Positions 2,569 to 62,118 of a stretch of DNA of 64,000 nucleotides are shown here, in pieces. The translations under genes were made by a program, and so were the position numbers. The DNA comes from Mytilus trossulus (Eukaryota), in NCBI RefSeq assembly GCF_036588685.1, contig NC_086386.1:30690001-30754000 (forward strand). The letters run 5' to 3'. Under the pieces are notes generated by a model. That model saw only the letters and a list, made by a program, of their open reading frames with translations. It made no database searches and was not told where the DNA came from. Position 1 is the stretch's first letter; each line of letters begins with the position of its first letter.

Positions 2569-17302
<14,734 letters not shown>

Positions 17303-24900: not shown

Positions 24901-27900
24901 TGTTATTGTGCTATTATGGTATTTGTTTTTTTTGTATTTTTGACGTTCATTAGGCTTGCGTTTTAACTGATGAGTCTTATGTAGACGAAACGCGCGTCTG
25001 GCGTACTAAATTATAATCCTGGTACCTTTGATAACTATTAACTATATTCAACTTTAAATTTAACGGGAAAAAAAACACCATTAAGTTACATGCAAGCTCA
25101 TAAAAAATTCTTTGTTGACATCATTTGAATATGGTTCCCCTTTTTTGAAATTTGTACCTATTATGGCTGTTAGATTTGTTCACATAATGATATTGTTTTC
25201 AATATAATTTGATTTTTAACTCCTGCCATACAAGTGAGAGGTTTAGCTAACTTTGAAACCAGATTTAATCTACAGATTTCTACGTAAGAAAATGTATCAA
25301 GTCAGTCAGTTGTTTGCCGTTCGAACGATATTCTGGAGATTTTGATTTTGCCATTTGAAAAGTAACTTTGCGTTTTGAATTTTCCATGCTGTTTAGTATT
25401 TTTGTTATTTTCCTATGAAAATAAAGGCTCTTACTTATCCAGAAACTGAAAAAATAACCGAGTTACAATATCAGAATGCTCTAACAGCTAAAGTAGTTTA
25501 GTTAATGATGCGTGAAGAATTTTGAATTAAGCTTTACAACAGTCTGACATAATGCCATATGAAAATCAACAGAAGAATCAAAAATGCAAGTCAAGAAGGA
25601 TGTTCAATTAATATAAAAATATGCACAATGATAAAGAGTTTTGTTATCATCATGATCATGTCGCGTTTGCAAGTCAAGAATATGGCAGTTTGTTTTCCAT
25701 ACGTAAGATATGTTTGAGATTTGGAATTTGCCCTTCTTTAAGTAACTTTGCGTTTTGAATTTTCCTTGAAGTTCGTTATTTTTGTTATTTTTCTATTTGA
25801 TAAAGGCTCTAACCTTTCCAGTGTCTTCACTTGCGTATCTTCCTGTTGAGCTTGATTGTCTGTACCTTGATCTCTTGTTTGACCTTTTGATGTGTCGCTA
25901 AAATAAAAGTTTAAATGTTGCGAAAAATACATTCAAAATAAAAATGATACACATGTTAAGAAACTCGACAAAATAAACTATTATTGTTTAATATCAAACA
26001 TTGTTTAAATTTCAGATGATTTTGTTATTCAAAATCTGTTAAAAACAGTTTTAAAATAACGAAAGTTAAAGATTGTGTAGAGTTGGGTATTCCAAGAAAG
26101 AACAAACAAGTATCAATTATGTGTAACCATGACCTTTACCATCTAGAGTCATATATAATTTGTCTGGCTATTTTTGTCATGTGGATAGGAACTTCCTCAA
26201 AAACAGCTGTTTCTCTCTTGTGAAATCAATTTAGATCCATATTATTGAATTTTCAAACAAATGGCACAAACGTATATGACAGTTTTTTTTTACTGGTTTA
26301 CGCTCCATTTTGTATCTTCAATTTTGATTTTTTATGCACAATATCACAAAGTATAAAAACAAGCTTCATGACAGACTGTATTTTATCCACATTGAATAAC
26401 CATCTTTTAAATAACATCTTGGCGAAAAATATTGTACCTCTTAACCAATAGCAATGGCATCGAATTTGTGTGGCTCTGTCGTATTGTTTTTAATGTTTTT
26501 AATCAATTAGTGCTTCGTTTAAAAGAGAGGCAAAATATGTCCTTACACGGGACATATACACTTATAAGTCAAAAACAAACCTTCAGCTCCATGACAAAAA
26601 GGCCCCGGCAAATTAAGAAATGACACAATCGACAATATACAAAACACAACACAACACAGAAAGGTCACAGGTTACAACTCCGTCGGGCAACTTGATCATA
26701 AGTGGTTGTTTAAGCTTTTGGGGAAAGTTCTGGAAAGTCTTATTTTTATAGTTTTAAACGTTTATCTCTTTAGCATTCTTATTTTGAAAACGTTGGTCAC
26801 AAACACGAACGGAATTCTGAAACATTATTGATTAACACGTGTCCATACTAAATTTCAAGAAGATTTGGATAGTTTGAACCAGCTGACGAGGACAAAATAT
26901 TCTAATCAATTTTAATACATGAGCCAGTTTAAAACCAGAAAATACCGTAGTGTCATTTGAATTCAGAAAAAATAAAAAATAAGCACCAGTATGATGGCTG
27001 ATGTACTACTTTGGTCTCATTGACTTAAACTTTGCAATTTTGTTCAGTTTTTTTTTTTATGAATAATCTGAAAGAATAGAAATAGAGACACAGACAATAG
27101 GCAAACATGGTTGCTAGCAAAATGTATTGATAATGATTTACCTCCATGTCGAAGTCGATGTGACATTATTTGTGTTGTTATTTTTGACTCTTTTCTTCTT
27201 TTTACTAAAAGAAATAATGTTATTAATCACAAATACTCAAATCTAGAGAATAATTACAAAGTCTTAAATGTACCTCCGGAGTAGATTTTTGTTCTATTTT
27301 CGGTTGTTTTGTATATAAACATTTCGTTGTGTAAAGTAAGCTTGATATAAACAGCCGAAAGTTTCTTCCGAGCTTATAAATAAATAATTTTGAGTTAATT
27401 TATACGAATTTGTCAACGCAAACTGCTTGGCACAAAATGATTAAAAATTGGTGATTATATTTCACATTTTAGTATAGGTTAATGAAAATCTAATATATGC
27501 AGCAAGGCTCAACTAAATGAAATTAAGTGTTCGGTTGTCATGTTTTCACCACCCATAAAAACACTTTCTCAATCCCGTTCTATTGTTCATAGTCTTCCGA
27601 AGCACATGCGACTATCTCCCTGTTTTTTGATAGAATGTGTGTTACTTATGCCGTGTTCACACCAAACGTCGTGTACAGTAAACATGTTTACATTTTGTTT
27701 AATGTAATCTGCACTAGTTTCACATTAAATTTGTTCACATCTATACACCTTGTTTAGCTACCTGTACATAAGATTTGTTCACACTTGTAAACTATATGTC
27801 ATTTAAATGTTCATTAGGAAGAACCGAATTCTAATTATTGACCAACTTTTCTAGCAGTTAGGGAACGATTATTTGACTTATAAAAAGGGGGACGGATTTT

Positions 27901-37630: not shown

Positions 37631-38707
37631 ACAGGTAAAGGATTATCGTGTCGATTGTCTTTATACTCTAATTTTGCTGCCATATATTCTTATGTTATGA
37701 CATATATGCAGTTTAAAAGTACTACAATGAAAATTTTCCACGCGACAATATTAAAAACGGTTCACAAAAAAAACTGAAAGATTGACACCAAATAATTAAT
37801 CGTTAAAAATTATAACAATTTGAAATTTAGGAAAACAAATATGGAAAGAAGGATAATAAAGGTAAATAGATAAACTAATAAAGAAAGAAAGAAAGAAAAA
37901 AACAAAGTAGATTAATAAGATCAATACGACGAATCAAATCAATCGGATGAATTAAATAATTGAATTACTCTATTTATACATAAAATTGCCCCAAACTGTT
38001 CTTGAAATAGAACTGTCATGTTTGTATCTAAAGTAGAACAGTCCGAAGTTATCCCAGTATGCATATGCCTCATTTACAGCTTACAAAAAAGACAATAGAA
38101 TATATGCAAAAAGATTGCACGTATTTTCTTCAAGAGAAGTATGTAAAAGAAGAGAAAAGAGGGACGAAAGATACCAAAGGGACAGTCAAACTCATAAATC
38201 TAAAACAAACTGACAACGCCATGGCTAAAAATGAAAAAGACAGACAAAAAAAAACAATAGTACACATGACACAACATAGAAAACTAAAGAATAAACAATA
38301 TCATGAGTTAACAATGTTTATGATTATTACATTAACAGTGTTATTGTATCTATATATTACAGTTGATAACATAAAACGTAAAATAACAACAATACCAATT
38401 TACAAGGGAAATTCCTTTATAAAATGGTAAAATCAAAAGCTTAAACACATCAAACGAATGTAAAACAACTGTCATATTCCTAACCAGTAAACGCGATATG
38501 ATACAATATTCTCTTTATTATGTACATTTTTATTTTGATTGAACAACATTCTTGACTAGCACAATTCTATAAATTTCCACGTGGCATTATGTCAGACTTC
38601 TGTTAGGATTTATTCAAAATTCTTGACGCATATTTATCTTAGCTACATTGGCTTATTGTTTGAACATTTTGATACGGTAGCTCAGTTATTTTGTCAGTTT
38701 CTGTTGT

Positions 38708-41700
38708 TCAATCTTTATGATCCTGTTCAGTACAACTAAGTGTTTTTATGAAAGGCATTATATATTGGCTTTCTTCATAAACCATATTACCATTGTTCAG
38801 CAAGCATTCAGCATTTGTCTTATCGTTGGCTGTTAATTTTTCTTCAGTTTCGACCTTAAACTGGGTTTCTACCGTTTTATTTGGGTAATTATTGTACTTG
38901 TGTTCAGAATCATTTTCTGAAGAGACTTCTTTTATTTTTTCTTTGTTCGTGTAGTGGGAAATATCGAATGCAGGTGAGCTCATCTGATGATATAGTTCTG
39001 TATTTTCACTTGTATCAGCTTCGATATAATCGTACGTTTTGCTTGATGTTTTCTGTGAAGAACTATCAGCCATACTATGGTAATAACTATTTTCTTGACT
39101 TTGTTCTTCAACATATCTTACATGTTTTACTTCAGTTGGATCTTCGACATATCTTACATATTGACTAGAACTATCATCGCGATTTTCCACTCCACGAAAT
39201 GAATTAAATGATGCGTCGTTAGTAGATCCAACATTGATATCGTCAATATAATCATACTCCTGATTCTGCTGTATTTCGTCATATTGCTTGATATTGTCCA
39301 TTTTAATTTGTTCCCAAGGCATACTGCTTTTTCTCTGATTTTGTCGTTTTCTTAATAAACTGTTGAAAAAGACGTAAAGAAATTGATGTTACAAAATGTT
39401 CGTAATACAAGTTTTATGAGTTTGACCGTCCCTCTGGTATTTTTCGTCCCTCTTTTAGTTAAAACACATAATATATACTTCCAATTTCAGTGTCACGTAC
39501 TTTTCCGATTACTTTTATGACTATTCGCCATGTTAAAGGAATACACTCATGGTAAACTCTGCCTCAAGGAGGCTAACCCTTGTTTCTAGTGAAATTACTT
39601 AGTATGTAATTCGTGAAGTAGGATACTAGCAATCAACATTAATATTTAAAAACCTGCTGCAACACTTACTGCCGCGTGGACGAAATCCGAGTGGTTTGAG
39701 AGAGTTGTATGTAATCAAAAGTTTCGCCCGACTTTTATTTTCTGTACAGATGACAATTTGCAACAGTCAAATTAAACACTGGATTTGTATTTTTTCCAGT
39801 ATTACTTAAGTTGCGAGTAAAGAAATTTAGTTTTAGTATAGGTTATAATAATAGATACTTTTATGAATGCTTCAATGAAACTTGAAAATTCGTCTGCCTT
39901 CTTGTACATACCAACACAATACAATCATACCGATGACACAAATAACAGCAAGCGTCACACAAACACAGGTAACAATAACCAAACCCATATCAGTGCTGGT
40001 AGATACTGAAATAATGATAATGACATGAATGATAATATCAGATTATTACATGGCATTTTTCATATCGCATGTATTATCAGCCCTAGGTTCAATATCAGCC
40101 CAAGAGCCGCATGGCTCGAGGGCTGATATTGACCGAGGACTGATAATACATGCGATATGAAAAATGACATGTTATGATCTTTTTATTATCTGCTTAAACA
40201 ATGGAGAATAATAACTGCTAGAATCATAATTGATCCTCAGTTTTACGTGGTTACCAAATAGAAGTTCAAAGAGTGCAGTTCACGGACGTCGGACTCCTAA
40301 TTAAGTTCAATCGATATGAAATCTTTCTATTATATACCTCAACAGAGAAGAAAAATATTTTGATATAGACGAATCAACAAAATAAATAATTCAACAATAT
40401 ATGATAGAAAGATATCATATCGAATGTACTAAATATTGGTCCGTGAACTTGCAATATTTGAACTTTTATTTTGGAACCACGTAAAAGGATCAATATACGA
40501 ATCTGTTATTCTTTTCCATTGTTAAAGCATATGATAAAAAGATCATAACATGTCATTTTTCATATCGCATGTATTATCAGCCATCGACCATACAGCTCTT
40601 GGGCTGATATTGAACCTAGGGCTGATAATACATGCGATATGAAAAATGCCATGAAATAATCTGATATGATAATGATAATGAATATGATAATGATAATAAA
40701 TATGATAATGATAATAAATATGATAATGATAATAAATATGATAAATTGATAATGATAATAAATATAATAATGATAGTAAATATGATAATGATAATAAATA
40801 TGATAATGATAATAAATATCATAATGATAATAAATATCATAATGATAATAGATATGATAATGATAGTAAATATGATAATGATAATAAATATGATAATGAT
40901 AATAAATATGATAATGATAATAAATATGATAATGATAATAAATATCATAATGATAATTATGATAATGATTATAGTGACTATAATGATAATAATGGTATTA
41001 ATTATAAGAATAATAATGATAATGATGATGATGATAATAATTAATCAATACAAACATACTTTAACGAAAGAAAATTTAACTACCATTGGAAGTTCATTAT
41101 AACTTGTTCCAGTTCATCAATATAGAAGCATGAACTTCGTTAAGGTTTCATACCATCGCAATATTATAGGCGCGTTTTAGTAAAACCTCAAAATTGATGA
41201 ATTGCTAATTCTTTAAAGTTTTAAATATTGATGATATATTCACCATCACAGGAAAAACTGTTTAAAACAAAATAACTTTTCCCCAAGTGAATTGTCTGGA
41301 GAAAAATATGTCATTTTGACATATTCGAAAACCAATAAATAAAACGGAATTAAAATGTTTTTCTTAAATTGAATTTTAAGGAAGTCGGTAGCAGTTTATA
41401 AATACAGGATTTTCATACATAATTTTCTTTACTCCTTGGTTTTGATTGTTTTTGTCTTTCTTTCTTTCTTCCTTCCTTTTTTATTTGTTTTTGATATTTA
41501 GCTGCTACAATCTGTAAGTATATTTATAGACTTTTTAGCTCACCTGGTCGAAATTTTCAGACGTATCAGACTGCCTGTTGATGGGTTGCTGTCATTGGTA
41601 ATTTTAAGGACATTTTATAGTTTATAGTTGTTATTTTGAAAATTATTACAGATAGAGATAAACTGTATACAGCAATAATGTTCAGCAAAATAAGATCTAC

Positions 41701-44700
41701 TAATAAGTCAACATGACAAAAATGGTCACATTGAGGAGTAATTGCCCGTTATTTTATTTTTTCAAAATGTCTTTTGAAATGAAATCAAAACTATAACGTT
41801 GCATTATTTCATGTATCAAAAAAGTAAAATCACACAAATACTGAACTCCGAGGAAAATTAAATCAGAAATTCCCTAATCACTTGGCAAAATCAAATGACA
41901 AAACACATCAAATACGAATGGACAACAACTGTCATATTCCTGACTTGGAACAGCCTTTTTCAAATGTAGAAAAGGGTGGATTGATCCTGGTTTTATAGCG
42001 TGTATATATAAATATCAGGAGAGCGACACAGGTTCCTTGGAGCCTCTAGTTTATAAGTGTTATTTTTACCATCATTTTGAATAGAGCCAGTCTTCACAGT
42101 AGCCATATCTGTACTCATATGTACTTCTTCAGTTGTAACTTGTTGGCCATTAAAGGTGTCATGGTTTGTTACTTCGCTGTTTGGAATCGTTTTAAAGTTG
42201 TTTATACTCGATGTTACTGATACAATAGTTTTAGTTGCTTGATCTCTTCTGTTGAAAGCAGTGCTGTGATTATTTCTAAGCATTGTCGTAGAAGAAGCGT
42301 TGTTACCTATAATCTCTCGCCCCATAAGTGTTGTTTGCGCAACTGTTGTTGTTAACTCATTGTTTCTATTGGTTGACACGCCATTACCAGTCACAGTTTC
42401 TATCTGTACAGATGATTCGTCATTGAGGGTTGTATTTGCCTGTGTAGAGGAAACAGTGGAATCTATGTTACCAGTGATTGACTTTACAGTAGAATCAATA
42501 GCTGTTACCAGTGTTGTGCTTTCAGTGTTCGTAGTCTTCTCAACACCAACAGAAGTCAATAATGTTGTGGTCTCTGTTATTGTTTTGTTAATGGTTTTGA
42601 CACCAACCCTAGTAGACATGAATTGGCTCATCCCAGATGTACTTGATTTGCTTCCTTTTTCTACTGTAGTTGAGTTTTGTGTTGTCAGTTTATTTGAAGT
42701 AGTAGTAACTATATTTTGTGATCCTGACATTGTACTTGCAGAGTCTGTCATGGTTGTACTTTGTAAGGTAGACATACCTGAAACATATTGAAAAGTGTAT
42801 GACAAATAGATGATATATACATAGGAAGATGTGGTATGAGTGGCAATGAGACAACTCTCCATCCATCCTAGTAACAATTTATAAAAGTAAACCATAATGA
42901 TTATTGGTCAAGAAACATATAATAACTATATTTTAAAAATGATATAGCCGTAGTTAAAAATCGTAAAATTGCTAAGCACTAAAAAAAGACTTGTCTTTCG
43001 ATGTTTTAATCTTAAGTAATTAATTGTCACATTAAAAAGACAGTGGTAAACATTTTACATAGGATAAGATTTCAATCTAGCCCACACAAATATCACTCAC
43101 CTGATGACGCAATAACTGTTTGATCTGATGCCGTTGTTTCTTTCGCAATATCACCTTTTTAAATATAAAAAAAAATATTGATCAAAAATAGCAAAGGAAA
43201 AAGTAATATTTTATTTAATATTATATTGACCATTATTTTTGTTAACTTCGGTACATTTATGAATTTGGCCTATTGCATGATTATTATAGATTTTTTAATC
43301 TTAAATCAAAAATAAAATGAATAATAACTCCTCAAAATTATGTGACAGTAGCTTCCATTTTTGAAATTTAAAGCATAAATGAGCCCACTTTCACAAGAAC
43401 CTGGTAGTCTAAATAAATCATTCGAGATCGAAACTAAAGTCATCGAAAAGATCGAGCAGATAGTGTGAGTTACATTCTTCCTGACAAATATTTCACTGGT
43501 ATTAAAGAGATAACTGTAGTTACGACTATCCCAATATGGCGACGGCAGATTTAGGTAAAATCTTTACAGTCATTTTTTTCAAATGTAGCATGTTTTTGTC
43601 AATAGTTACTCAGCTGCAAGGTTTTTCTATACCATTACATGATATTTGAATCGTAACGGTGCACTGGCATTGTCTAAGCGCTATGAAAATTGCCGTTGAA
43701 AACTCAAGTAAAGATTATCTCTTTAAAGTCATAAGAAACGAGTGACCGGTGAAAAATAATGTTCTTCCAATTCTTGAACCAATGCATACAAACATCATCA
43801 ACTTAGTCTTCTGTGCTTGAATTTATCATTTTTTTTCGTGTAAATTTCGTATAATCGTCAATTTATTTTTCAATCGGTCAGTGCTGTTGTGAAAATATGG
43901 CAGGTAATTAAAGTTCGTGTTTTGAAGCCGAAGTTTAACGATTGTCACCTGTTTGTCAACAATTGACGAAAAATAAACAAAAAAGCATGGAAATTGAGCA
44001 CGTTTTCAACATGTAAATTCAGATAATAGTTTATTTTAAGGACATCCATGCGTATTGGGTGCAATCAACAGTTTTTTTCTATGACGTCACATTTTTAGGG
44101 ACCATGCATAAGTGACCCTTAGTGGTGGACTGATTAATAAAGATACTTGTATAAAACTTGATATCACTGGAATCAGAATGTTCTCTAGTTTATAATGAAA
44201 TAAAAATAATGTGTACTTTTAATATATTAAAAACATTCCATCCAATGAACATGGGGGAAAAAAGCTCTAATTTTGACAGAAAAAACTTGAAACCAGGTCA
44301 TGTGCACAGACATGAAGACATGATCCATGCACATTTTTCATAATCAAAACTGTATGAAATTTGTAGGTTTTTACCTGGCCTTTCGAAAAAATCTTGTTTC
44401 AGGGTACGGTTTCCTGCTCCGAAAAGAGCTACAGTGGCTGCAAATAAGTTTTCAATTTTCACTGCCAAAAAAACAGGATGTTTACAAAGTTGTCTCCCCT
44501 CAAAACATGTAAAGTTAATTTAATTTTTAAAAATATTTCAATCATTCAACCTGTTTTAATTGAAAGCTAATTAACTATTTTTTACAATCAAACACACAAA
44601 ACATGATACTTTTGCACCAATTGAGTTAATAAACAGGGGTTTCCCTCTATGGTTATTTTTAGTCAGGGAATAAGCCCTAGTTTTTTATACGAAACTGTTT

Positions 44701-47700
44701 ATAGCACCCATTGTGGTCACCGGATTTTTACGAGATGGGTCACAGTGAGGTCACCTTGCATACGGAAAATATGTCGGGGGAATTGCTTGCTGGAAGGAAG
44801 CAATTCAAATAAAGTAAACTTCTTCTAAATATGAATAAATTAAAGAATTTTCTTCAGAAAAAAGTATATGTACATAAGTTTTATAATGAAAACTATCCAT
44901 TGAGTTATAAAAAACATATGCATTATTTTTCTTTGATTTGAGGTTTCTTATGACTTTAATACCAGTGTATTTGTATTTGAACGTTATCGAATAGCAACTC
45001 AAAGTCAGTGAATAACAAACCATCTTCAGCACATTATTGTTATAGCTATGAAAACTGGAAATGGATGATAATAACCCAAAGATGTTGGCGTTACTTTGTT
45101 TCCAGAAAATACTACGTTTTGATTTATTAATTTGTCGCTATGTATAGTGTGAATATATACACGAAGCTTGATGTCCTGTGTTATTCCAATTCTTCGCAAT
45201 CTATCTATAAGTTTCACAAGTTCATAACTTACCAAAGCAGAACGCAGAGCTTGCTGGTACACCACTCGTGTCTAAATAATAAACTCTGAAATCTCCACAG
45301 TTCTTTATTTTTATTGTTAAGCTACTAGTATCATAACTTGAGTCACAACAAGACCCACTTACGCTAAGCTTACATACAGATCTCTCTACTTCTCCATCAC
45401 TAACGGCTGGTATTGTTCCTTAAATTGAACACGAAAATAAAAAATCAATTAGTGGAGTTAACTTCCTTTTATTTATTGAACAATCATGGATTAATTCAAA
45501 AGCATAGGTATCCATATATCTCTGCATATTGTTTTACCTGTTGAAATAATGGTTCGTCCGAACGTGAGTGGGTAAAATTAAACTCGTGAACACTCAATAC
45601 TCAATATATGTTTGACGTTGAACCTCTAAATTGACATCGACTTCTAGAATATTGACTCAATTTTACCCCCAAAAATACAGATTTCAATTTGAAGAAATTA
45701 CACAATAGCATCGGGTGGTCTTTCAACAACAAATAGCTAGTGAAAAGTTATACCATGCACCGATAACATGGTGTGCAATATTACTAGTAACACCATGAAC
45801 TATAACCAATGACTGTAGCAAGCCCTTATAGTGTAGTAGTAATAGATTGTTTAATGGTTATTTGTAATTGTAAGAAAGCAATTGAGGTAAACAGCCTGAG
45901 TTAGTTGTAAAAGCAGATACTAGTATAAGAATTATATATTACCATTCAGCCATATGGGAAACGTAGTACCACAACGCATAAGAAGTGGACAGTCTTTAGT
46001 CATGTCCGAACCGGCTGTAAGATTAGATCTATACCACCCTGTTGCCAAACGATCATCTGAAATGGCAGAACCAGTAATGCCGAGGAGTGGGGATCTTGTT
46101 TCTTCCATCGGACCTTCCAAAAGCAAGTAGTCTGTGCATGGTTCATCTAGTTTGAAATTAGAAATATATAAAATATGAAATTTAATTAATTTCTTCGGAA
46201 ATTCGTACTGTATAATAATAAATAATTGAATAAAGTTAGATAAAATACTAGAATCGATTTTTTTACTTGCGGTTGGTACTACACAGCTACTTTTGCATAG
46301 GTACTATTTCTGTACTAAAAATGTGTAGTACTGGAAATCTACTTATAATATTCAGTACTATATTGTTACTCTAAAATTATTGTAATATTTAGGTACCAAT
46401 ATTTTACAGTACTTTATTTGTACTAGAAATTTAAGTGCTACAGATTTTTGGTTACTACCGTTACATTTTCAGCATTTTGAAAGTTTTTCTATTTCAAATC
46501 TCTAAATGGCAACAGTAGGATACCGCTGTTCAAAACTCATAAATCCATGGACAAAAAACAAAATCGGGGTAACAAACTAAAACCGAGGGAAACACATTAA
46601 ATATAAGAGGAGAACAACGACATAACACTAAAATTTAACACACACAGAAACGGACCGAGCATCCGACAAAATCCCACGAGAATAACAAATATAACATCAA
46701 AACAAAATACATGAATATCTCTTAAAGTTATGATATTCAATTCTGTACCAAAATATTTAGTACAAATCAAGTACTGTAAAATACAAGTACCTAAATATAA
46801 CAATAGTTTTAAAGTAAAGAAACAGTACTAATTATCAAAAGAAAATTTCCAGTACTGCATTTTTTTAGTACAGAAATAGTACCTATGCAAAAGTAGCTGT
46901 GTGGCCTCTGAATATGCTTGATTGAGGAGCTCCTTCACTGGAGTCCCGAACTATTTTCATGTATTGAGATATCAGCGAAAGCGACTTATCACTGATTTTC
47001 ACATCATCACAACAGGTACCACTGTAGGAGCAGGATATGTTTGTATATTTCTAAGCACTTGATTTTACTCCCGCTTTTAAATAAAACTCGTGTTGGTCAG
47101 TCTTTAGTTTTCTGTTTAGCGTTTTCGCCGTTTTTGTCCAAAATACTGTACGTTTTTTTTTTTCTTGAATTATGGTTTTTGATGTAGCTTTATGTTCCTA
47201 ATGTATTGCTCATCATTTACTTAAATTCACATGTATGAAGAAAAATGTTTTAGTTAATACAACAGAAAAAGATTGTCCATGCTTTTAGTGTCCGATAATT
47301 CAATAATGACAGTCTATCAAACAATTTGTACTCGTTCAAGTAACTTCTTAAGACAGATTGCATGACAAATATAAGTCTGTGACCGATTCTTTGTATAGAA
47401 ATTTTTACATTGAGAATAATGCATTAAAATTTGTCTAGGTTTTATTGGTTTTGTTTTGTCTTGTTTTGTTTTGTTTTTGTCTTGTTTGATCTTAGTTAAA
47501 ATGAATACAGCTTTAAAACAAATACATCTTTTAGCTTATAGATTAAAGGGAAAAAAAATGTTTTAACATTTTATAAATATACACCTGGTCAAATAAGATT
47601 TAACTTAAAAACTATATACTTACTTGTTGAAATAGTAATTAAGTTGTCCAGTAAAAAGAAATAAAATAATACTTGTAATAGAACTAGCTTTCTTCTCCAT
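38708..47700 (-). CDS. Type-I transmembrane protein: signal peptide, uromodulin/GP2/OIT3-like D8C(D10C) domain, Ser/Thr mucin stalk, TM, Tyr-motif cytoplasmic tail (about 657 aa; apparent frameshift in exon 1)
   Basis: Exons: 47700-47624, 46146-45943 (EPCTDY...GWYRS...CGTTFPIWLNG), 45418-45233 (TIPAVSDGEVERSVC...SCC...IKIKNCGDFRVYYL...AFCF), 43154-43101, 42777-42070 (S/T-rich), 40005-39912 (MGLVIVTCVCVTLAVICVIGMIVLC), 39359-38708 (CLLRKRQNQRK...). All junctions from exon 2 onward are GT-AG and phase-consistent. Confidence 0.85.
40036..40666. mobile_element. Fold-back/MITE element with long TIRs that are themselves palindromic
   Basis: TCAGATTATTACATGGCATTTTTCATATCGCATGTATTATCAGCCCTAGGTTCAATATCAGCCCAAGAG... 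is inverted at the right end; each arm contains an internal hairpin. Confidence 0.8.
40667..41040. repeat. 18-bp minisatellite (ATGATAATGATAATAAAT)n decaying into (ATA/ATG)n
   Basis: Directly visible; it generates the spurious Ile-rich ORFs 40616-40948 and 40746-41102. Confidence 0.95.
46279..46904. mobile_element. Long-TIR non-autonomous element with an internal insertion (about 46507-46715)
   Basis: ACACAGCTACTTTTGCATAGGTACTATTTCTGTACTAAAAA... inverted as ...TTTTTAGTACAGAAATAGTACCTATGCAAAAGTAGCTGTGT; many GTAC subrepeats. Confidence 0.75.
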
Positions 47701-48655
47701 AATTTATCAAGCGAACTTAATATGTTTGAATCAGAATTATAATTATAATAAATACTTCCTCAGACTTATGGTTTTTACATAGGACATTAAATTCAAAACA
47801 CGAATTGCATTTGAACTATATAAATATGAAAGGGTATACAAAACATAAGGAAGGAATTCTTTTCAATTATAATCTTTTCATGTTCTCACGAAATATAACT
47901 TATCACAATGTTTAAAAAAAAAATTAAAAAGAAATCACCCTTCATACTTTTTTTTCAATCGGCAATCCTCGGGTAACTCCGCTTCTCTCCTTCTATACGT
48001 TAGAATCGGCCGAGTTGTGACGATTGATATATCTTTAATACAACATATTAAAAAGAGGATCGATGATCAAATGATGGGGATTATATTCCACATGTTTTCT
48101 GAGAGTACAATTACCATAGTATGATACCTGAAATAAACGGAGGAGTATTCCGGGCAGGGATTTACACAATCATAACTACATGTCCAATAGTGACAACTCT
48201 ATTGAGCTTTTCAGACATGAGAAGACAATATTTATATCAGATTTTATATTTGCTATTTTTCACTTCCCCTTTTCGTGTGCATCAAGCTTATGATACTGTA
48301 CTGTAGAAATTATTCTTTATTTTCAATCATTTCAATCTCCTTTCTCACAAACATTTAAAATGAGTAATTCGAATGTAAAATACCAACTTAAAATAACTAA
48401 TATAGGCAACGGTACGTCCTTCAACAATGAGAAAAGCCCTCACCGAAAAGTCGGCTACCAAAGGCCGCGACATGAAAATATAAAACAATTCAATTGAGAA
48501 AACTAACGACCTTATTTATTGGTTTATAAAAAATATTGAGTATTCTATGACGTCACAATATTGGTATAACGTTACAAACGTGTCTATGGGCAACGGTATT
48601 GACTGCACCAGCGAAGTTGTTCTTTCCAGTAGCGCTGTATGTCTGTTTGTATAAA
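47701..48655. promoter_or_regulatory. Putative bidirectional promoter region
   Basis: The two predicted start codons (47700 on -, 48656 on +) face outward about 955 bp apart; no transcription start evidence. Confidence 0.45.
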
Positions 48656-51600
48656 ATGACATCGTATGAACTGTTTAATCCTGATTCCATTGAATTCAAA
48701 AAGAGACAGTAAGTAAACGCAACTAATTCAAAATTAACCAAGTTTTATGTCATCATAGTCTTGAAATAAATTGGTAATTAATAAAAATGATTTAAAAAAT
48801 AAGGTGTAAACCAAATTTTTATTCAAAAACTTATTTTTTGACAGACAGTTTGGTTTTATTTAAATTAGTTCTGTATATCTTACATATCATTTAGGGAACC
48901 ATAATTAATTTTGATATGTTATGGATCCAAGAGAATTATTATTAGCTTGACTATATAAACATTACCTTTTGATACGCATGCAGCTTTGTCTAATTAGTGC
49001 GCATAGTTATCATATAGCAATCAATAGTTTACTTGAAATGAACAATTCGTAATTTTTAAAATCACTGAGTATAGACAACTGTATGTACTTCAACAATGAG
49101 AAAACCCCATACCGTATGGCCGGCTATAAAAAGGCCACGACATGAAAAATATGTCACAATTTATTTGGGAGTACTAACGACCTAATTCATATTTGAAAAA
49201 AAATACGAAAAAGAAATATGACAGACGCGAACCAACGACAACCACTGATCTACAGGCTCCTGACATGGCACAGGCATATAAAGAACCCTCTCATAACCTG
49301 GTGTAACAGTTAAACATAAGAACAAATATTAATTTCTTCATAAATGCGCATTTTTTTTAATAGTTTGATAACCTCGCATTACAAACATGCAAAAGTTGAC
49401 TATCTCGAGAGCATAAATATTGCATCTAAGGTTTGAACGATCGAATAATTATTAGTATGTGCATGATTTGTTGAAGTTACTACTGATAAAGGAATAACTG
49501 TCCATTATTCAAATTTTTCTATCATACAGTTTAACCGATTTGACTTTCTGGAAACATTATGCTGAGGAGAAAGCATCATACCATGATTTATTATCAAAGA
49601 AAATGTTAAAAACGGTCAATGAATACAGGAAGAAATTAGTAAAGATAGATGGCTTCAAAGGTTTGTAAATAATATCCGCGTACATTGTGTACGATTTACG
49701 ACTCCATATTTGCTCAACAATCAAGGAAAACTTACCTTTTTTTTTATAATTTGATGATATGTTTACTTAGGATCAATCTTAGTCGTAAGTTTTTTTTGTG
49801 AAATCGACTCCTGGACTGCAACCTACTATGGTAGTGTACAACACATATCTTAACTGCTTTACAATCCGGGAGCACCATTACAATTGTCTAAGCGTAAGAC
49901 AATCTTTTATTTACTAATATTAGAGTACTGGAATCTGCATGCCCACAAAATAAATGCTAGTGTGAATAGCATGAGTTAGTAAATATTGCACTTGTACATT
50001 CAATGGCATGTCTTTGTGCAGTTTATCGGAGTTTCGTGTCGATTTGTTGCATATTCTTCTAATAAAAAACATCTTTTTTAATTTGTAGATTTTCCACTGT
50101 TGAAATCCTTCGAGGCAGCTATGACACGTGATGAAATACAAGCAGAAGAACTGCGATCTGTTGCTTCCAGTTTCTCTTGTCTTACCCGGGATTTACAAAG
50201 GTAAGAGTCCGTAAGACAGTGTTTATTCACACGGTCTTTTTATCATACTTATCTTGTGTCCTTTAGATCATTGACAATCTCAACTTGTTTCGTGAGCTTT
50301 CAAAGTTTTTATGTTTAAGTACATCGCTTAATGTGGATTTTTATGCCCCACCTACGATAGTAGAGAGGCATTATGTTTTCTGGTCTGTGCATCCGTTCGT
50401 CCGTCCGTCTGTCCCGCTTCAGGTTAAAGTTTTTGGTCAAGGAAGTTTTTGATGAAGTTGAAGTCCAATTGACTTCAAACTTGGTGCACATGTTCCTTAT
50501 GATATGATCTTTCTAGTTTTAATGCCAAATTGGAGATTTTACCCGAATTTCACGGTCCACTGAACATAGAAAAAGATAGTGCGAGTGGGGCATTCGTGTA
50601 CTGAGGACACATTCTTGTTTTATACATTATTCTGTTCAAATAATGATAATATAAGATATATTGAAGTATATTTTCGTTTTCAGTGAATTAGACAGTATAT
50701 CTACATCAGAATATGAGAAAGAAGCAGTTGCTTTTAGAAAACTAGTAAAGATACATTCCAAGGTTTTAAGAGAAACTGAATCGGACAGAGATGTGAGTTC
50801 ATTTATGTATTTACCTTACATATTAACCAGACAGTTCTATCTTAGTTTTGTTCATCACTACAACATGCATCTGTTGCTCTTTTAAAATTCCCATTTTTTT
50901 TAAAATTGGAGGCTAATAAGAAACTTCGTCGTAATTATTAAACAACAATGCTTTAAACCTCAGCACTCTCCTGAAAAGACAGTTGTCGTATAATTTTGTG
51001 TCGCATGCTTTTTTGAATACTCTAAATTGCCAAAATTTATCATTTTGATTTGATTTTCAGAAAATTAGCCATGTTGCATTTAAACTAGAAAGAATATATA
51101 CAAATGCTTGCAAAAATGAAAAGTACAATTCCACAAAACAGCTACTAGACAACACAATTGCTAGTTACGATATCCACAAAGAAAGCGAGCTGCTTCTTCG
51201 GGCAAAAATCATTTCAGTAAGTATGTGTTTCATTTATCACCTACCTGTATCTCACATTCTACATCCCTAGAGATACCCATACAACATGTACAAAGCCTAA
51301 GCGTACCTTATGAAAAGTATTTGGAAATATGTAAAAAGCCATATTTGTTTTTTTATTTCAAATAAGAAAATTTATTCATATTTTAAGATAAAGGGAGAAA
51401 TTCATAATGATATAGGATTATTGCAAATATTTATGAATTTTATTACGAACCAGCAAACGGATGCACGAACGAAAACAATTGTCACTTTTAAATCCAGCTT
51501 CATTAAACAAAAAACCTTAAATAAAACAAAACAAAACTTAAATTTAGTCTTAGATGCATGATTTTGTGTAATAGTTGTTAGTTGCTTTGCAGTAACTGCG

Positions 51601-54600
51601 AGTACTCTCATATCTGTACTTAGTGTCTTTTTGTTGTTGGAATGTACAAGTACCCGGCCACGTCCACTTGTATTTGTAGTATTTGTATTGTTATCCATCT
51701 GATGTATTAGGACTTTTTCAACTGATTTTTATAGTCCGTTCTTATGTTGTACTGTTACCCCAATGTCCCAGGTTAGGAGGATGGTTGGGATCCCACTAAC
51801 ATATTTAACCCCGCCACTTTCTCTATGTATGTGCCTGTCCCAAATCATAAGCCTGTAATTCAGTGGTTGTCGGTTGTTGATGTGCAACATATTTGTGTTT
51901 TTTTTGTTTTTGTACATAAACTAGGCCGTAGGTTTTCGCATTTTAATTGTTTTACATTTGATTTTGGGGGATTTATAGATGACTATGCGGTATTGGCTTT
52001 GCTCATTGTTGAAGGCCGTACGGTGACCTATAATTTTGAATGGATGTGTCATTTTGCTCTCTTGTACCACACCACACCACACCACACAACACAATGATGC
52101 GAATACTTAAATCTAATTATCTTTTTAAAAAAAATTCACGAAAAGGTAAAGGAGGAATGTGTCAAAGACAGAAACCCCAACAAAGAACATAAAACGGCCG
52201 AAGGTCACAAATGAGTCATTAACATAGCGAGAAAATCCAGCAACCGCCCCAAACAAAATGTGAACAAGTTCAATAAAAATGCACATCAAACTCCAAAACA
52301 TATAAGTTACTCAAAATTTAAAAAAAAAAATCATACAAGATCAGAGGCTTCATAAAGACCAGACGCTACTGACTTGTGATAGGTGCTAAAATGAGGTGTT
52401 GAACATGTTATCTGAGATCCGAACCTTCCATCTATACATCTAGCCAATGTAGAATAAACAAAAACACAGCAATACGCAAAGTAAAACTCACTTTAAAAGA
52501 AATTCGATTTTTTTTTTATTGATTACGGGTTTGGTGTTGTTAATGTTATCACAGTGGAATTTATTAAAATGATTAACTTTGAAAATAATTTAATTCAGAA
52601 GTCTGAGGAGCTCAAGAAATTATGGCTGGAAGAAGAGAAAGAAAGGCTTGATGTTCTACTGAGGGGATGGAAAGATTGTTTAACTGCTGAAAATCAGCTT
52701 CTTAAACATAGACACCAAGGTCACGGAGACAGAGCATTAAAGATTGCTGACAATATTTATAATGCAGATGTTTGTTCTGAATTGGCTATCATGAGAGTGT
52801 CGCCTCACAAGTACAGAGATTTCGAGGTAAATGAAATTAATATTATCACTTGAAAGGATTTTAATTACACTCTGAAACAACAACAAAAAATAATATATAT
52901 GTCAATGGCATATTAATTCAATATACATGTATATAAAAAAAGTAAAGTTCCGTTTTATTTCATACGTTCGTTGCTACATTGTTCATTCTTCAAATATCGA
53001 ATTGGTTTGTCTTTTTTCATACAAATTAAATTTGTATCAGATTCTCATATGTACATAAATGATAAGTATGGTAGCATGTGTATTTTAGGAAAGTTCAACA
53101 CTGGTAAGCAAAGCAGCAAAGCATTTAGATACGGGCGAAAGGTTGAATACCACAGAAGAAGAAATTACAAAATTACATAGTAAATCGCGGTGCAGAACAG
53201 CAGTCGGTGTCGTAGGAAAAAAGAACAACACAGAAGAAAAGCACTGTAAATCATTGACAATACTCCAAACACCAGATGCTAGTATATCACATGAACATAA
53301 TCGATCAGCTACACTTCCGGCAAGCGAAAGACGTAAAACAAATCGTCGAAAGGACAGGCACCTGGTACATTCAAGTGATAAAGACGACAATAGGTATGAT
53401 ATATCTCGACGTCGCAAAACGAAAATGAGAAACGAACATGCAACGTTAGTACCCTACCACCCAGAGGATAACCAGTGTACAGAGGTCCAAGATTTATATA
53501 AAGAGGGCGACATTACGACCGATGATGAAAACCTGTCGGTTTTTGGTGATAAAAGATTGAAAAACGGTTAGTACACAATTCCCCCTATTACTTTTTTAAC
53601 AAGATATTTACCACTCACACAACTGACAAGGCTTAATTCTTTCATTACTTTGTATGCATATGATATATAAACTTGAATAGCAGGAATTGTAGTTTCAAAA
53701 TTTGTGATGACAAAAAATATTTGTTGGTATAAATAATTACTTATATGTAATTATTGGCCTTCGGCTGTCATCTGCTCTTTGGTTGGGTTGTTGTCTCTTT
53801 GACATATTCCACATTTCCATTCTCAATTTAATGTATGCTTAATTTTAAAATTTAACTCTTTTAGGTAAGACTAAAACGAAGATAGAATCTGGAGATGGCA
53901 TAAAAACCACAAAATGTAGCAGTAAGAAAGTATATGCTCGAGTTATACCACAAAGAAGACAGACAGCAGATATAAGACGTACTGTTACCCAGCATGATGA
54001 TTCTAATGGAGGTTAGTCATGTTTTTTCAATTTCTTTTTAAATTCTGAAATATATTAGTCAATTATTGTTCGATTAAGTTTACAATTATACATTGAAGAA
54101 GTTAAAGACTTAATTTTTAACATTACCTCGTGAAAACTTCGAAAAACATCATGTAACTCAGACGACATTATCAATGCAAAAATACTGTATATATCTATAT
54201 TGCACATGCATATATCTAGTAGCTAATTCAGTATAGAGTTTAATGAAACAGTTTGTTTGTTTGTTTGCGTATTTCTCATCTTCAATTGAATTGTCAATGA
54301 ATAGCCACTCAAAGCTTAAGAATTATTTATTGTCCGATGGTGAAATAAATTGAAAAAGATTTTACCTTCGTTTGATCATCTTTGATTCAATGCCTACTGC
54401 TTTAACGAACAAACGAACACCGCAGATTTTGTATACAAGTAGTATGATTTATAAGATCAACGTTAAGAGAAAAAAAGTTCTGAGAATACTGTTTACTCTT
54501 GCAATTTCAGCATCGCTTGATTCCTCTGATGATGAGTCGACCTTCACAGATAGTGGGAGTGTGGCATCAACAGGTCATTGTTCATCTGTTAAATGTGGTG

Positions 54601-55892
54601 GTATTTCCAGTGAAGCAACACTGACTGCAAACAGAAAGGGGAGTAAAGTACCAGTCTCCGACAGTGCAACCTTTTCTTATTTGTCTGCATTTGAGATACT
54701 CAATCTGAGAGAAGTTGCTACAAGACGGCTAAATGTTTGTATCCACTTAGTCGCTACTGAGACGTATAAGAGCAACGACTTTGAAAAGTTGTCTTTGAAG
54801 AAAGGTATTTTTAAAAATACAAAGATATATAAGATATTGCATGTAAGAATTAAATGGCTCATTTGAAAACGGAAAGATTGAATTTTATAAGCCTTATCGA
54901 TATATTTAGCACGAAAAGTAATTCAGAAAATGTTTTCAATGAAACGTTAAATCAGGGGATATTTCTGAAATAAGGATGGTGAGGTGCAAAGGAAAGAAGG
55001 TTTATATTGAATAACGTAAATCTATAAAGTTGTAGATAGAAAGAATGCTAAAATTAGTGCCAATATGCAAACATTTGTGGGTTTCGTATTACTTTTAGTC
55101 TAACGTTTTCTTAGTAGCCTTTTGTAGGTCTCGACTTGTCTTTTCATCAATTTCCTTTTTTTTTGCATTGTTCGACGTATGAGTTTTGATTGTCCATCGG
55201 TCTTATAATATTAATTCCCAAATTGTCCATTTGATATTTTCGGTTTGTATGCCCCGCCGTAGACGACGGGGACATTAAGTGCTACTTTTAGCTGTTCGTC
55301 CCTCCCATTTCCGATTGTTTGAAGCTTGGTGATTGCATTTGTGTCCTCAGACAAGTTCCTCTTTTATTCTTCCTTTAATCTTCTATTTTGTCAGATTACA
55401 AGAAAATCTGTCACTAAGCTAAATATAAAATAAAAAGCTGTTGTGTGGTTGAAAATGAGACGACTATCCACCAACACCAAATGATGTAGACGGGATGTTG
55501 ATGCAACTATATAGTTCATCGTAATGCCTTCAACAACGAGCTAAATCGTGATCATAAAGAATATTCCTTCATTAGTTTTTAGTGAAAGTAATAGAATAGG
55601 ACACAAAATATGTATCTCTTTTTTTCATAAATTTAAAACTGTATGATTCCGAAGTTAGAGATGACGTAACTATGACAGCCATATGTTGATGTCTAATGTA
55701 TTCTGCTTTTTATTTGATTTAGGAGAATCGATAGTTATGATGCAAACTCCAACAACAGATGGCCTGGCATTTGGATATAAGAAGATTCGACTTAACACTA
55801 AGAAGAAACACGGCCTTTTCCGTGTAAATTTAACCAAAATTGACTATTCTGTGAATCAGAATCTTGAAAATGTATTAAGAATTAAACAATAA
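48656..55892 (+). CDS. Divergent I-BAR (IMD) plus C-terminal SH3 domain protein, IRSp53/BAIAP2-like architecture, 625 aa
   Basis: Ten phase-consistent GT-AG exons: 48656-48708, 49530-49660, 50089-50200, 50684-50792, 51061-51216, 52599-52826, 53089-53566, 53865-54011, 54511-54804, 55723-55892 (1878 nt, open). The N-terminal helices align by eye to IMD; C-terminal VATETYKSNDFEKLSLKKGESIVMM..DGLAFGY..HGLFRVNLTKI is SH3-like. The gene model is solid; domain names are moderately confident. Confidence 0.75.
50338..50620 (-). mobile_element. Short HINE-like dispersed repeat (second copy about 55992-56262)
   Basis: TTTTTATGCCCC hairpin, (CCGT)n, shared core CTTCAGGTTAAAGTTTTTGG..., end CACATTCTTGTT. 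Confidence 0.7.
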
Positions 55893-59889: not shown

Positions 59890-61218
59890 TTAATACCAAT
59901 CCTTCCTTTTACCACCCATGGCTTTATCTCCAAAATATCTATGTTCTTTCTTATCTTGATTATATTCATACACATGTTCAGGAGTGAAAAATTCAGAATT
60001 GATATCCCAATTATCCAATTTATTCCTGGCATGTTTTTTCAGTTCAAGAAAATCCATCTCCCAGATATTGGATTTTGGTTCTTTATCTATTGCTATAGAA
60101 TCTTCATTTACTGATTCTATTTTTTTCTTCACAATGAATTCCCCATTGTCTTGTAAATTACAGTGTTCGAAATCTTCTTCTGTCTCAGGTAATCCAAATG
60201 GAAATGTAATGGGTGTAATTTTGATCATATGTGCCACTGATTTTAAGTCTTTGTTTACACTTGGTGTATTCTTCAGAACTACTTTCTTGTACAACTAAAA
60301 AATAAAACATGACATGAGGGTAATCTCAAAATATGGGTCACAACCTAAAAATAACAACAAACAGCATTATGGGTAATATAAATAACAGGTGTGATTTTGA
60401 TCATACATGTATCATTGTATATGTGCCACTGATTTTAAATCTTTGTTTAAACTTGGGTGTATTCTTTAGTTCTACTTTTTTGTAACTAAAAAATAAAACA
60501 TGACATGATATGTCAGAAGGCAATCTTAAAATAAGTGTCACAACCTAAAATAATTAAGGACTACAAAGAGCACTAGAATATAATTCTTCATTAAACCTAA
60601 ATAAAATATTGTTATTGGTTGAATACTTATTAATTTGGAAAATTGTAAGGATAATTCTTATTGGTTACAGTTCTGAAAATATCTTCTGAATCTTTTAAAT
60701 TATTAAGATGACCTTCTATTAGTTCAATGAATAATTTACAGATACCAAAATAAACAGACATACACATGAACCTATTTGATTATGTTTTGTATTTCATTAG
60801 AAAATACATTTTAGCAGAAAATATTTCAAGCCTGATAAGGACAAGACTCCTGACACTAAAAATTCAAAGATGACTTGAGGCTAATGAGCATCTACATAAT
60901 GTACATTAACTGAGTAGTGAAAGACCTTACTAAATGAACAGTCTTATTTAAAACGGATAATACCTTTGTATCTAGTCCATATTTTTCACATATTTCTTTC
61001 TCCCAGTAAGGTCTCCCAGATAAATCTTTCATTCTCTGTACCATGTGAAGCTTTGATACTTCTTGCTCTTTTTTCACTCTTTCTTCTCTTCCCATATGTC
61101 TCTCTACAATTGGTGTAGCCCATGAAAAGTCTTCATCAATTACAGACTGTTTGGGAATATTAACATGCCTGACTTGACTTACATTTAATCTTGGTAAACA
61201 CCTAAGCACGGCTGATAC
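59890..61218 (-). CDS. MRPL30: 39S mitochondrial ribosomal protein L30 (uL30m); start exon uncertain
   Basis: Exons 61218-60964 (VSAVLRCLPRL...KLHMVQRMKDLSGRPYWEKEICEKYGLDTK) and 60294-59890 (LYKKVVLKNTPSVNKDLKSVAHMIKITPITFPFGLP...NGEF...*). RPYWEK, KNxPSVN and PxGLP motifs are diagnostic. A candidate ATG exon at 63056-63042 (MTETS|gtatgt) is low confidence. Confidence 0.92.
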
Positions 61219-61899
61219 CTAAAAAAAATAAAATATATATAAGTTATTTTAATATTTTGGTAAGAATAAAATTCAAACTATCTGTAAGTTGTCATTATCA
61301 AACTATATAATGCCAATTTTCAAATCAATATCTATAATTGTCTAGACTATAAGCATAAAAAAAAGTGTGCAGAAAACTGATTATTCAGGTGAATTCCCCA
61401 AGTCCAAGGACCATAACCATAATAACTCTGCACAAAATCATCAGAGTGAGACCATAGCAAAATTCGTTCTAAGCAGTAAACCACATGTAGTTATTTTTAG
61501 TGAATTTTTCTTAATTCAAAGGTCATACATGTAACTCTAAAACTATTCCCAATGCACATTGTATTATATCAGTACATCAGAAGCGTAATTTTCACCCTCT
61601 CACACACATCTCTGGTACCCAGACCGGAGTTTATACTAGAATGGGTACTTTGGGGGCCTTGGTTGGTCAAAGATGTCCCCTACTTTGACCTGGAGATCAA
61701 TCTTCTGCTATCTCTCTGGTTTGTCTGTTTCCACCGAGTGGCCCGTTGGTTTTCTCCAAGTACTTCAGCTTCCTCCACCATAATAACTGACTTCCCGGTG
61801 TCCTACACGCTCCCTTGGGCGGTGTTGGGTGGGGATTGTTCTGGTGGTGGGATAATATTGTTAAGGACACATCTCCATTAATCCTTAGGGAGTGTACAT

Positions 61900-62118
61900 G
61901 GTGGGTCTCATTTGGGTCTAAGCGTGACCTGGGATTGCCGATTTTTTGTAAGCATGACATGTGAAAGTCAAATTATTGTGCCGTGAAAACGGGAAATAGG
62001 GTCTTGCGGGACCCGGGGAAATGACAATAAAATGAGAATTGCTTACGTACATAGTGTAAGCGGGATACAGGAATCTGACAAAACAGTAACCGGGATCCTG
62101 ACCCCCAATGAGACCCCC
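61900..62118. mobile_element. Small TIR element
   Basis: GGGTCTCATTTGGG ... CCCAATGAGACCC inverted ends, flanked on both sides by TACAT. Confidence 0.55.

What the first reader, a model, noticed from the sequence alone, without database searches (positions are those of the whole stretch)
38708..46146. Unusual architecture: single D8C/D10C domain on a ~250-aa mucin stalk with TM and signalling tail, no ZP or EGF domain
The familiar D8C proteins (UMOD, GP2, OIT3) are GPI-anchored or secreted ZP proteins. Here the domain caps an O-glycosylatable stalk and is linked to a ~215-aa disordered tail, as in a signalling receptor. The domain carries two N-glycan sequons (NLT, NGT).
Basis: partly seen in the sequence, partly recalled or inferred. 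Interest (0 to 1): 0.7.

Follow-up and report, generated by a model that had tools for sequence, protein, structure and literature searches.

The report
Broken mussel uromodulin-domain surface receptor
This mussel gene joins the uromodulin-type D10C domain to a long serine/threonine-rich stalk, one predicted membrane helix and a tyrosine-rich tail, so it is likely a cell-surface signalling receptor; the layout recurs in other bivalves, and this copy carries a frameshift and an early stop that likely disable it.

Summary
The architecture is real. Seven GT-AG exons (47700-38708, minus strand) encode signal peptide, one D10C domain, a ~255-aa stalk (38% S+T), one TM helix and a 214-aa tail with 16 tyrosines. 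The gene is Mytilus trossulus LOC134697657, with orthologs in three other Mytilus species. The fold matches GP2/uromodulin (Foldseek E 6e-10). The decoy reading fails: there is no beta-hairpin, neither FimH glycan site is present, and the C2-C9 disulfide is lost. The layout is not unique. Of 149 best D10C relatives, 28 are D10C-only with TM and tail, mostly from bivalves; only 11 have ZP. One is a coral receptor tyrosine kinase and four are adhesion GPCRs. This copy is likely null. Best reading: a non-catalytic phosphotyrosine receptor of an unstudied bivalve-expanded class, ligand unknown (0.5). No spliced RNA for this gene was seen. My literature searches found no description of the class.

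The parts
47624..47700 (-). Exon 1: start codon and signal peptide (MEKKASSITSIILFLFTG...). It is 77 nt long, 4 bases more than the intact form, so the natural splice to exon 2 stops after 26 residues.
   Evidence: 8 of 8 other Mytilus models start with this peptide in frame; extra bases present in run X1, absent in run X7
45943..46146 (-). Exon 2: N-terminal half of D10C (C1, C3, C4; Ser in place of C2; NLT sequon)
45233..45418 (-). Exon 3: C-terminal half of D10C (C5-C8, C10; no C9). The NGT sequon spans the exon 2/3 junction.
43101..43154 (-). Exon 4: 18-aa start of the stalk
   Evidence: tblastn of orthologs, GT-AG borders
42070..42777 (-). Exon 5: 236-aa S/T-rich, Pro-poor stalk, predicted to be O-glycosylated
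39912..40005 (-). Exon 6: single predicted transmembrane helix, ending in a Cys-Cys pair at the cytoplasmic edge
38708..39359 (-). Exon 7: RKRQ stop-transfer and acidic tail with 16 Tyr (YDEI, YDYI twice); premature TGA at 38710-38708
38639..38707 (-). 22 further codons and TAA that match the orthologs' C-terminus (…YQNVQTISQCS), now behind the premature stop
   Evidence: 11 of 12 other Mytilus tail sequences run to this end

Best explanation
The gene encodes a D10C domain, a serine/threonine-rich stalk, a predicted single membrane helix and a tyrosine-rich tail, and its intact form is likely a non-catalytic cell-surface receptor, while the copy in this window is likely null. SHOWN: exon structure, domain order, GP2/UMOD fold, conservation in four Mytilus species, two reading-frame lesions here. 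INFERRED: (1) the signal peptide and RKRQ give type I topology; (2) the stalk is O-glycosylated and lifts the domain above the glycocalyx; (3) the domain binds a partner through its protein surface, most likely an own cell-surface or matrix molecule, because the decoy glycan is absent and the domain is the best-conserved part; (4) clustering lets a cytoplasmic tyrosine kinase phosphorylate tail tyrosines, which dock SH2 adaptors, as for the MUC1 tail; the juxtamembrane Cys pair would be palmitoylated. The ligand, tissue and kinase are untested.
For: Layout conserved in M. edulis, M. galloprovincialis and M. californianus. M. galloprovincialis vs M. californianus identity: D10C 82%, TM exon 79%, tail 71%, stalk 60% with many gaps. 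Tyr: 16 of 214 in the tail, 0 of 253 in the stalk; YDYI twice in all three species examined; terminal YQNV in the orthologs (SH2 assignments recalled). D10C also sits on catalytic receptors: a coral tyrosine kinase, P0044 (E 1e-70), and GPS+7tm_2 proteins P0042, P0052, P0066, P0150. P0114 has the same layout with 14 tail Tyr and is encoded whole on 1.5-1.9 kb contigs, 13 of 15 listed members full length. The ESM Atlas nearest named clusters for TM+tail are A36R, MUC1, SCIMP and LIME1, scores 0.81-0.88, leads only. Null allele: frameshift and stop, with the frameshift in short-read contigs.
Against: Tail tyrosines are not significantly better conserved than other tail residues (13 of 15 vs 152 of 218, p=0.13; two other pairs p=0.28 and 0.45). 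YEEI/YDEI is FDEI in M. californianus. No ITAM-type pair was found in the Mytilus tails. One M. edulis model ends early and one M. galloprovincialis model lacks TM and tail (P0005, P0007), so the tail end may be dispensable. Many D10C-TM relatives have short or Tyr-poor tails. No spliced RNA for this gene was found in 4 runs. Four of the ten best Atlas rows are not shown and only 3 of 10 agree on a family. One weak upstream AG at 46247 would reopen the frame of this copy.
Confidence: 0.5

Rival explanations
1. Membrane-tethered microbial decoy or uptake receptor, like GP2 on M cells: glycans on the domain and stalk catch bacterial adhesins, and the tail tyrosines drive endocytosis or an immune signal.
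For: Same fold as the FimH decoy module. Two domain sequons plus 5 in the stalk. Fish omcin5 with D10C repeats protects against bacteria (PMC11415648). Many D10C-TM forms occur in filter-feeding bivalves.
Against: No beta-hairpin: the domain begins right after the signal peptide. No sequon at the GP2 N65 or UMOD N275 position. NGT matches the exposed complex-type N232 and is lost in M. californianus. There is no ZP filament to give avidity. The domain is the most conserved region, not the most variable.
Confidence: 0.22
2. Structural glycocalyx or adhesion protein: the stalk does the work (lubrication, spacing, matrix anchoring), the domain caps it, and the tail tyrosines are sorting signals or cytoskeletal links rather than a signalling hub.
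For: The stalk is the largest part and varies in length, with 694- and 606-aa isoforms. Tyr conservation is not above background. Many relatives have short tails.
Against: A 230-240-aa tail with 15-16 Tyr kept at 71% identity between the two most distant species compared is more than sorting needs. The stalk lacks prolines and tandem repeats typical of mucins.
Confidence: 0.2
3. Gene-model artefact: D10C exons and TM/tail exons belong to separate transcripts, or the locus is a decaying pseudogene across the genus.
For: No spliced RNA seen. Two lesions here; an early end in P0005, a partial domain in P0002, no TM in P0007.
Against: All six introns have canonical ends and matching phases. Intact 606-694-aa frames in M. 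galloprovincialis (two annotations) and M. californianus. Graded conservation by region. The same layout is encoded on single short contigs for relatives P0114, P0034, P0075, P0059.
Confidence: 0.08

Closest known systems
Decoy module (beta-hairpin + D10C) of human GP2 and uromodulin (PDB 7P6R/S/T, 7PFP, 7Q3N; PMC8930769)
   Same: Fold (Foldseek E 5.7e-10, TM 0.73-0.77, 29% identity). Cysteines C1, C3-C8, C10 and the core residues R74, D86, W92, R94, V163, Y164 of GP2; the N232-type sequon.
   Different: No beta-hairpin, no C2-C9 disulfide, no N65 or N275 high-mannose site, no EGF, ZP or GPI end. It has a stalk, a TM helix and a long tail instead.
VWDE and bivalve VWDE-like proteins (e.g. XP_061187077, XP_052098788 cluster)
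   Same: N-terminal D10C without ZP. In the domain tree the mussel sequences fall in one clade (98/93) with bivalve VWDE-like and bivalve D10C-TM domains.
   Different: No VWD or EGF domain here. The clade is unresolved inside, so descent from VWDE is not shown.
Teleost omcins (zebrafish omc1-15; PMC11415648)
   Same: D10C-bearing family with variable domain number; lineage-specific expansion.
   Different: Omc5 has five D10C, EGF, ZP and a predicted GPI anchor, and no cytoplasmic tail.
MUC1-type transmembrane mucins and transmembrane adaptors (MUC1, SCIMP, LIME1)
   Same: Works like: S/T-rich ectodomain, one TM, non-catalytic tail rich in tyrosines (MUC1: seven Tyr in 72 aa, links to GRB2/SOS; PMC5039420).
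   Different: No sequence homology shown. No SEA, NIDO, AMOP or VWD domain, no tandem repeats, Pro at most 4 per 100. The adaptors lack a large ectodomain (recalled).

Membership tests
D10C/D8C domain (Pfam PF23283) | Profile score above the curated cut-off | tested here: met
   28.4-30.9 bits vs 27 in 5 of 6 Mytilus proteins; the sixth model lacks half the domain
D10C/D8C domain (Pfam PF23283) | D10C fold | tested here: met
   AlphaFold model of the M. edulis domain, pLDDT 86, pTM 0.81; 12 of 12 Foldseek hits at E<=0.001 are GP2/UMOD
D10C/D8C domain (Pfam PF23283) | Five disulfides (C1-C8, C2-C9, C3-C6, C4-C10, C5-C7) | tested here: not met
   8 Cys; C2 and C9 both absent. This is a common variant: 115 of 392 domains lack both, 8 lack only one
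GP2/UMOD decoy module | Disulfide-bonded beta-hairpin before D10C | tested here: not met
   No Cys and no room between signal peptide and C1
GP2/UMOD decoy module | High-mannose sequon in the groove (GP2 N65 or UMOD N275) | tested here: not met
   C-[ATS]-[DN]-Y-[LV] and YYLD at those places
GP2/UMOD decoy module | FimH binding | not testable with these tools
   needs a binding assay
UMOD/GP2/OIT3/omcin ZP proteins | ZP module and EGF domain | tested here: not met
   No Pfam hit at E<=1 in 6 of 6 proteins; stalk has no Cys
VWDE | VWD and EGF domains after D10C | tested here: not met
Transmembrane mucins | PTS domain: S+T at least 40%, Pro often over 5% (PMC4948705) | tested here: inconclusive
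   Best 100-aa window 44-47% S+T, but Pro at most 1 per 100 here and 3-4 per 100 in orthologs
Transmembrane mucins | SEA domain, or NIDO-AMOP-VWD as in MUC4 | tested here: not met
   definition from PMC5039420 passages
Non-catalytic phosphotyrosine receptors/adaptors | Single TM with a Tyr-motif-rich tail and no catalytic domain | tested here: met
Non-catalytic phosphotyrosine receptors/adaptors | Tyrosine phosphorylation and SH2 recruitment | not testable with these tools
   needs cell experiments; the conservation test was not significant

The most novel reading that the evidence does not exclude
D10C is not mainly a glycan decoy but a general ligand-binding receptor domain of animals, used on tyrosine kinases, adhesion GPCRs and kinase-less phosphotyrosine receptors; bivalves have expanded the last kind into an undescribed receptor family whose members are gained and lost between mussel species, and this gene is one of them.
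Probability: 0.3. Interest if true: 0.6.

Novelty: new variant of a known kind. Interest (0 to 1): 0.33.

Why it matters
The only mechanism solved for D10C is passive display of a mannose glycan on ZP filaments. A single, small D10C without that glycan, kept well conserved on a receptor-like stalk, is a simple handle for asking what the domain's protein surface binds; that bears also on VWDE and OIT3. The gene itself is one of many uncharacterised bivalve surface proteins, and this copy is likely dead, so its own interest is modest. A natural loss-of-function allele would be useful only if it segregates in populations.

Tried and rejected
RNA support: four runs listed as RNA (X19, X20, X21, X24) laid on 38000-49500 gave mostly repeat matches. 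No listed joint matched an intron, the core exons were largely uncovered, and one 278-nt X19 contig covered 38608-38882 (tables were cut, and absence proves nothing). X19 and X2 gave no cover of the exon 1 lesion. Full-length AlphaFold on P0001 with 6 sequences failed (pLDDT 31); only the TM helix was confident. Assembly error as the cause of the frameshift: rejected, because an X1 contig matches 47607-47900 with no difference or gap; X1 may be the source sample, so it is not population evidence. Rescue by other splice sites: the two in-frame phase-1 donors drop the hydrophobic stretch, and the one open acceptor (46247) lacks a pyrimidine tract; not excluded. The RefSeq start MEETRSPLL is K or E in orthologs and would lose the signal peptide and C1. 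Tandem paralogs in the window: none by tblastn, only a short copy of the 3' end. No whole genome was held, so family size and ortholog DNA (dN/dS) could not be measured. SignalP, DeepTMHMM and O-glycan predictors were not available; hydropathy was used. No complex was predicted, since no partner is known. Literature: 10 searches listed no paper on ZP-less membrane D10C proteins; several were broad and I saw only the top listings.
Full report
Observation. The six exons inside the finding splice by GT-AG rules into one frame that contains RefSeq protein LOC134697657 of Mytilus trossulus unchanged. Orthologs were found in M. edulis, M. galloprovincialis and M. californianus, 70-86% identical in the tail; these six proteins were all that passed among 313 candidates. 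The domain passes the Pfam D8C_UMOD cut-off, and no ZP or EGF domain scores. The stalk is about 255 aa, 38% S+T, without Cys and almost without Pro. One hydrophobic helix is followed by RKRQ and a 214-aa tail.

Eight of eight other Mytilus models start with a signal-peptide-like sequence in frame with the domain. That exon is here at 47700-47624, but it is 77 nt long and its splice to exon 2 stops after 26 residues. A contig of DNA run X7 lacks 4 bases at 47636. A contig of run X1 matches the window over 47607-47900 without a difference, and two differing X1 contigs just before it both run into it, which suggests both haplotypes carry the extra bases. X1 may be the source sample. The RefSeq model starts at a later Met that orthologs do not have and lacks the first cysteine. 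The TGA at 38710-38708 stands where orthologs have Leu; 22 matching codons follow, with the YQNV motif. Eleven of 12 other Mytilus tail sequences run to that end. Two lesions make a null allele likely (about 0.7). One weak acceptor at 46247 could reopen the frame. Gene loss between individuals is widespread in M. galloprovincialis (PMC7653742, abstract only); whether this gene is dispensable was not tested.

The domain. An AlphaFold model of the M. edulis domain from a 50-sequence alignment reached pLDDT 86, and all 12 Foldseek hits at E<=0.001 were GP2 or uromodulin. PMC8930769 (main text part 1 of 6 and passages read) defines the decoy module as beta-hairpin plus D10C, with FimH bound through a high-mannose glycan at UMOD N275 or GP2 N65; N232 carries an exposed complex glycan. 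Aligned to these chains, the mussel domain lacks the hairpin, both FimH sites, and both cysteines of the C2-C9 bond. NGT is the N232 site and is lost in M. californianus; NLT has no counterpart in GP2 or UMOD. Among 392 of 404 domain copies with both ends, 269 have C2 and C9, 115 have neither and 8 have one; 93 have the N65-type sequon, 119 the N232 type and 5 the N275 type. So the eight-cysteine form is a common variant.

How common is the layout. The domain found 1,872 representatives at E<=0.001; I examined the best 150, less the window's own protein. This set favours multi-domain proteins and close kin, so it is no census. Using Pfam at E<=1e-5, a profile of my own and hydropathy, the 149 divide into 11 ZP, 7 VWD/VWDE-like (one placed by its UniRef name), 5 EGF, 18 with other domains, 28 D10C-only with TM and a tail of 25 aa or more, 7 with shorter tails, and 73 without a TM or partial. 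Seven of the 28 have a single domain, and seven have an S/T stalk of 50 aa or more. Of 17 of the 28 looked up, 13 are bivalve, 1 amphioxus, 2 fish and 1 unnamed; the fish models could be truncated. P0114 has the same layout (one domain, 96-aa stalk, TM, 215-aa tail, 14 Tyr) and is encoded whole on contigs of 1.5-1.9 kb, which I read as transcripts (inference). D10C also precedes a tyrosine kinase in a coral (P0044) and occurs with GPS and 7tm_2 in four proteins. In a tree of 84 domains (133 columns; most no-TM, EGF and other-domain proteins left out), the mussel domain falls in a 31-row clade (98/93) with bivalve D10C-TM and VWDE-like domains, apart from all ZP rows; the clade is unresolved inside.

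Mechanism. Between M. galloprovincialis and M. californianus the domain is 82% identical, the TM exon 79%, the tail 71% and the stalk 60%. A conserved domain without the decoy glycan fits a protein-surface ligand better than a fast-changing microbial target. The tail has 16 Tyr against none in the stalk, with YDYI twice and a terminal YQNV in orthologs; that such motifs dock SH2 domains, and that juxtamembrane cysteines are palmitoylated, is recalled knowledge. MUC1 is the working analogy: seven tyrosines, phosphorylated by partner kinases, linked to GRB2/SOS (PMC5039420, passages). The Atlas put the TM+tail near A36R, MUC1, SCIMP and LIME1, but below 0.9. Against this reading, tyrosines are not significantly better kept than other tail residues (p=0.13, 0.28, 0.45), and pooled tails of the 28 relatives hold 90 Tyr in 1,845 residues, several with none or one. 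I put the signalling receptor at 0.5, a microbial decoy or uptake receptor at 0.22, a structural glycocalyx protein at 0.2 and an artefact at 0.08.

RNA. Four RNA-listed runs gave no joint at an intron. Support for one transcript is indirect: canonical in-phase introns, intact models in two other species, two M. galloprovincialis isoforms that differ in the stalk, and single-contig relatives.

Known and new. It is a member of the D10C domain family by profile and fold, in an eight-cysteine variant. It is not a member of the GP2/UMOD decoy, ZP, VWDE or canonical transmembrane mucin families (PTS definition from PMC4948705, passages). Omcins are GPI-anchored ZP proteins (PMC11415648, parts 1 and 3 of 5). 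The bioRxiv velcro-sheet paper (10.1101/2025.05.09.653020, passages) states that the UMOD branch is not needed for sheet formation, so it gives no ground for D10C self-binding. Ten searches of the open-access library listed no paper on ZP-less membrane D10C proteins; subscription papers, the original D8C paper and supplements were not seen. Databases already label some of these proteins as D8C-containing or mucin-like. Earlier scan notes on D8C in sharks, protists, placozoans and bacteria point the same way, that the domain is mobile, but I did not test them. Verdict: real, apparently undescribed as a class, but widespread, without a ligand, and likely broken here. Interest 0.33.

Noticed in passing
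window 25440-25741 (+): A 72%-identical copy of the gene's last ~20 codons and start of its 3' UTR (ETEKITELQYQNALT), 13 kb away on the other strand, with no other exon of the gene near it; it keeps the ancestral ELQYQN. Possibly a relic of a partial duplication.
   Followed up: partly
P0044 (Stylophora pistillata XP_022781145): Two D10C domains, S/T linker, TM and tyrosine kinase domain: a receptor tyrosine kinase with a D10C ectodomain, labelled FGFR-like.
   Followed up: partly
P0042, P0052, P0066, P0150: D10C repeats together with GPS and 7tm_2, i.e. adhesion GPCR-like models; P0042 is from a characiform fish. Gene-model fusion was not excluded.
   Followed up: no
392 D10C copies: The C3-C6 pair is also gained and lost together (233 both, 146 neither, 13 one); 75 copies lack both C2-C9 and C3-C6.
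   Followed up: partly
P0030, P0034, P0039, P0043, P0148: Short-tailed D10C-TM relatives carry PPxY motifs, recalled as WW-domain docking sites; a second tail type in the class.
   Followed up: no
window 21944-22201 (-): Exon with a MIEAP (mitochondria-eating protein) domain hit, E 2.3e-9; more likely exons up to about 24.5 kb.
   Followed up: no
window 6813-8974 (-): Exons of a multi-pass membrane protein that from recall resemble RNF121/RNF175; single exons gave no Pfam hit.
   Followed up: no
window 40052-41044: The intron between stalk and TM exons holds an inverted pair of repeats (about 40050-40170 and 40545-40660) and an 18-bp AT-rich tandem array at about 40660-41040.
   Followed up: no
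window 52497-54866 and 59893-62256: Several open frames of 100-170 aa without clear Pfam hits; one has a weak AI2M-like HNH hit below cut-off (60895-61218), possibly mobile-element remains.
   Followed up: no
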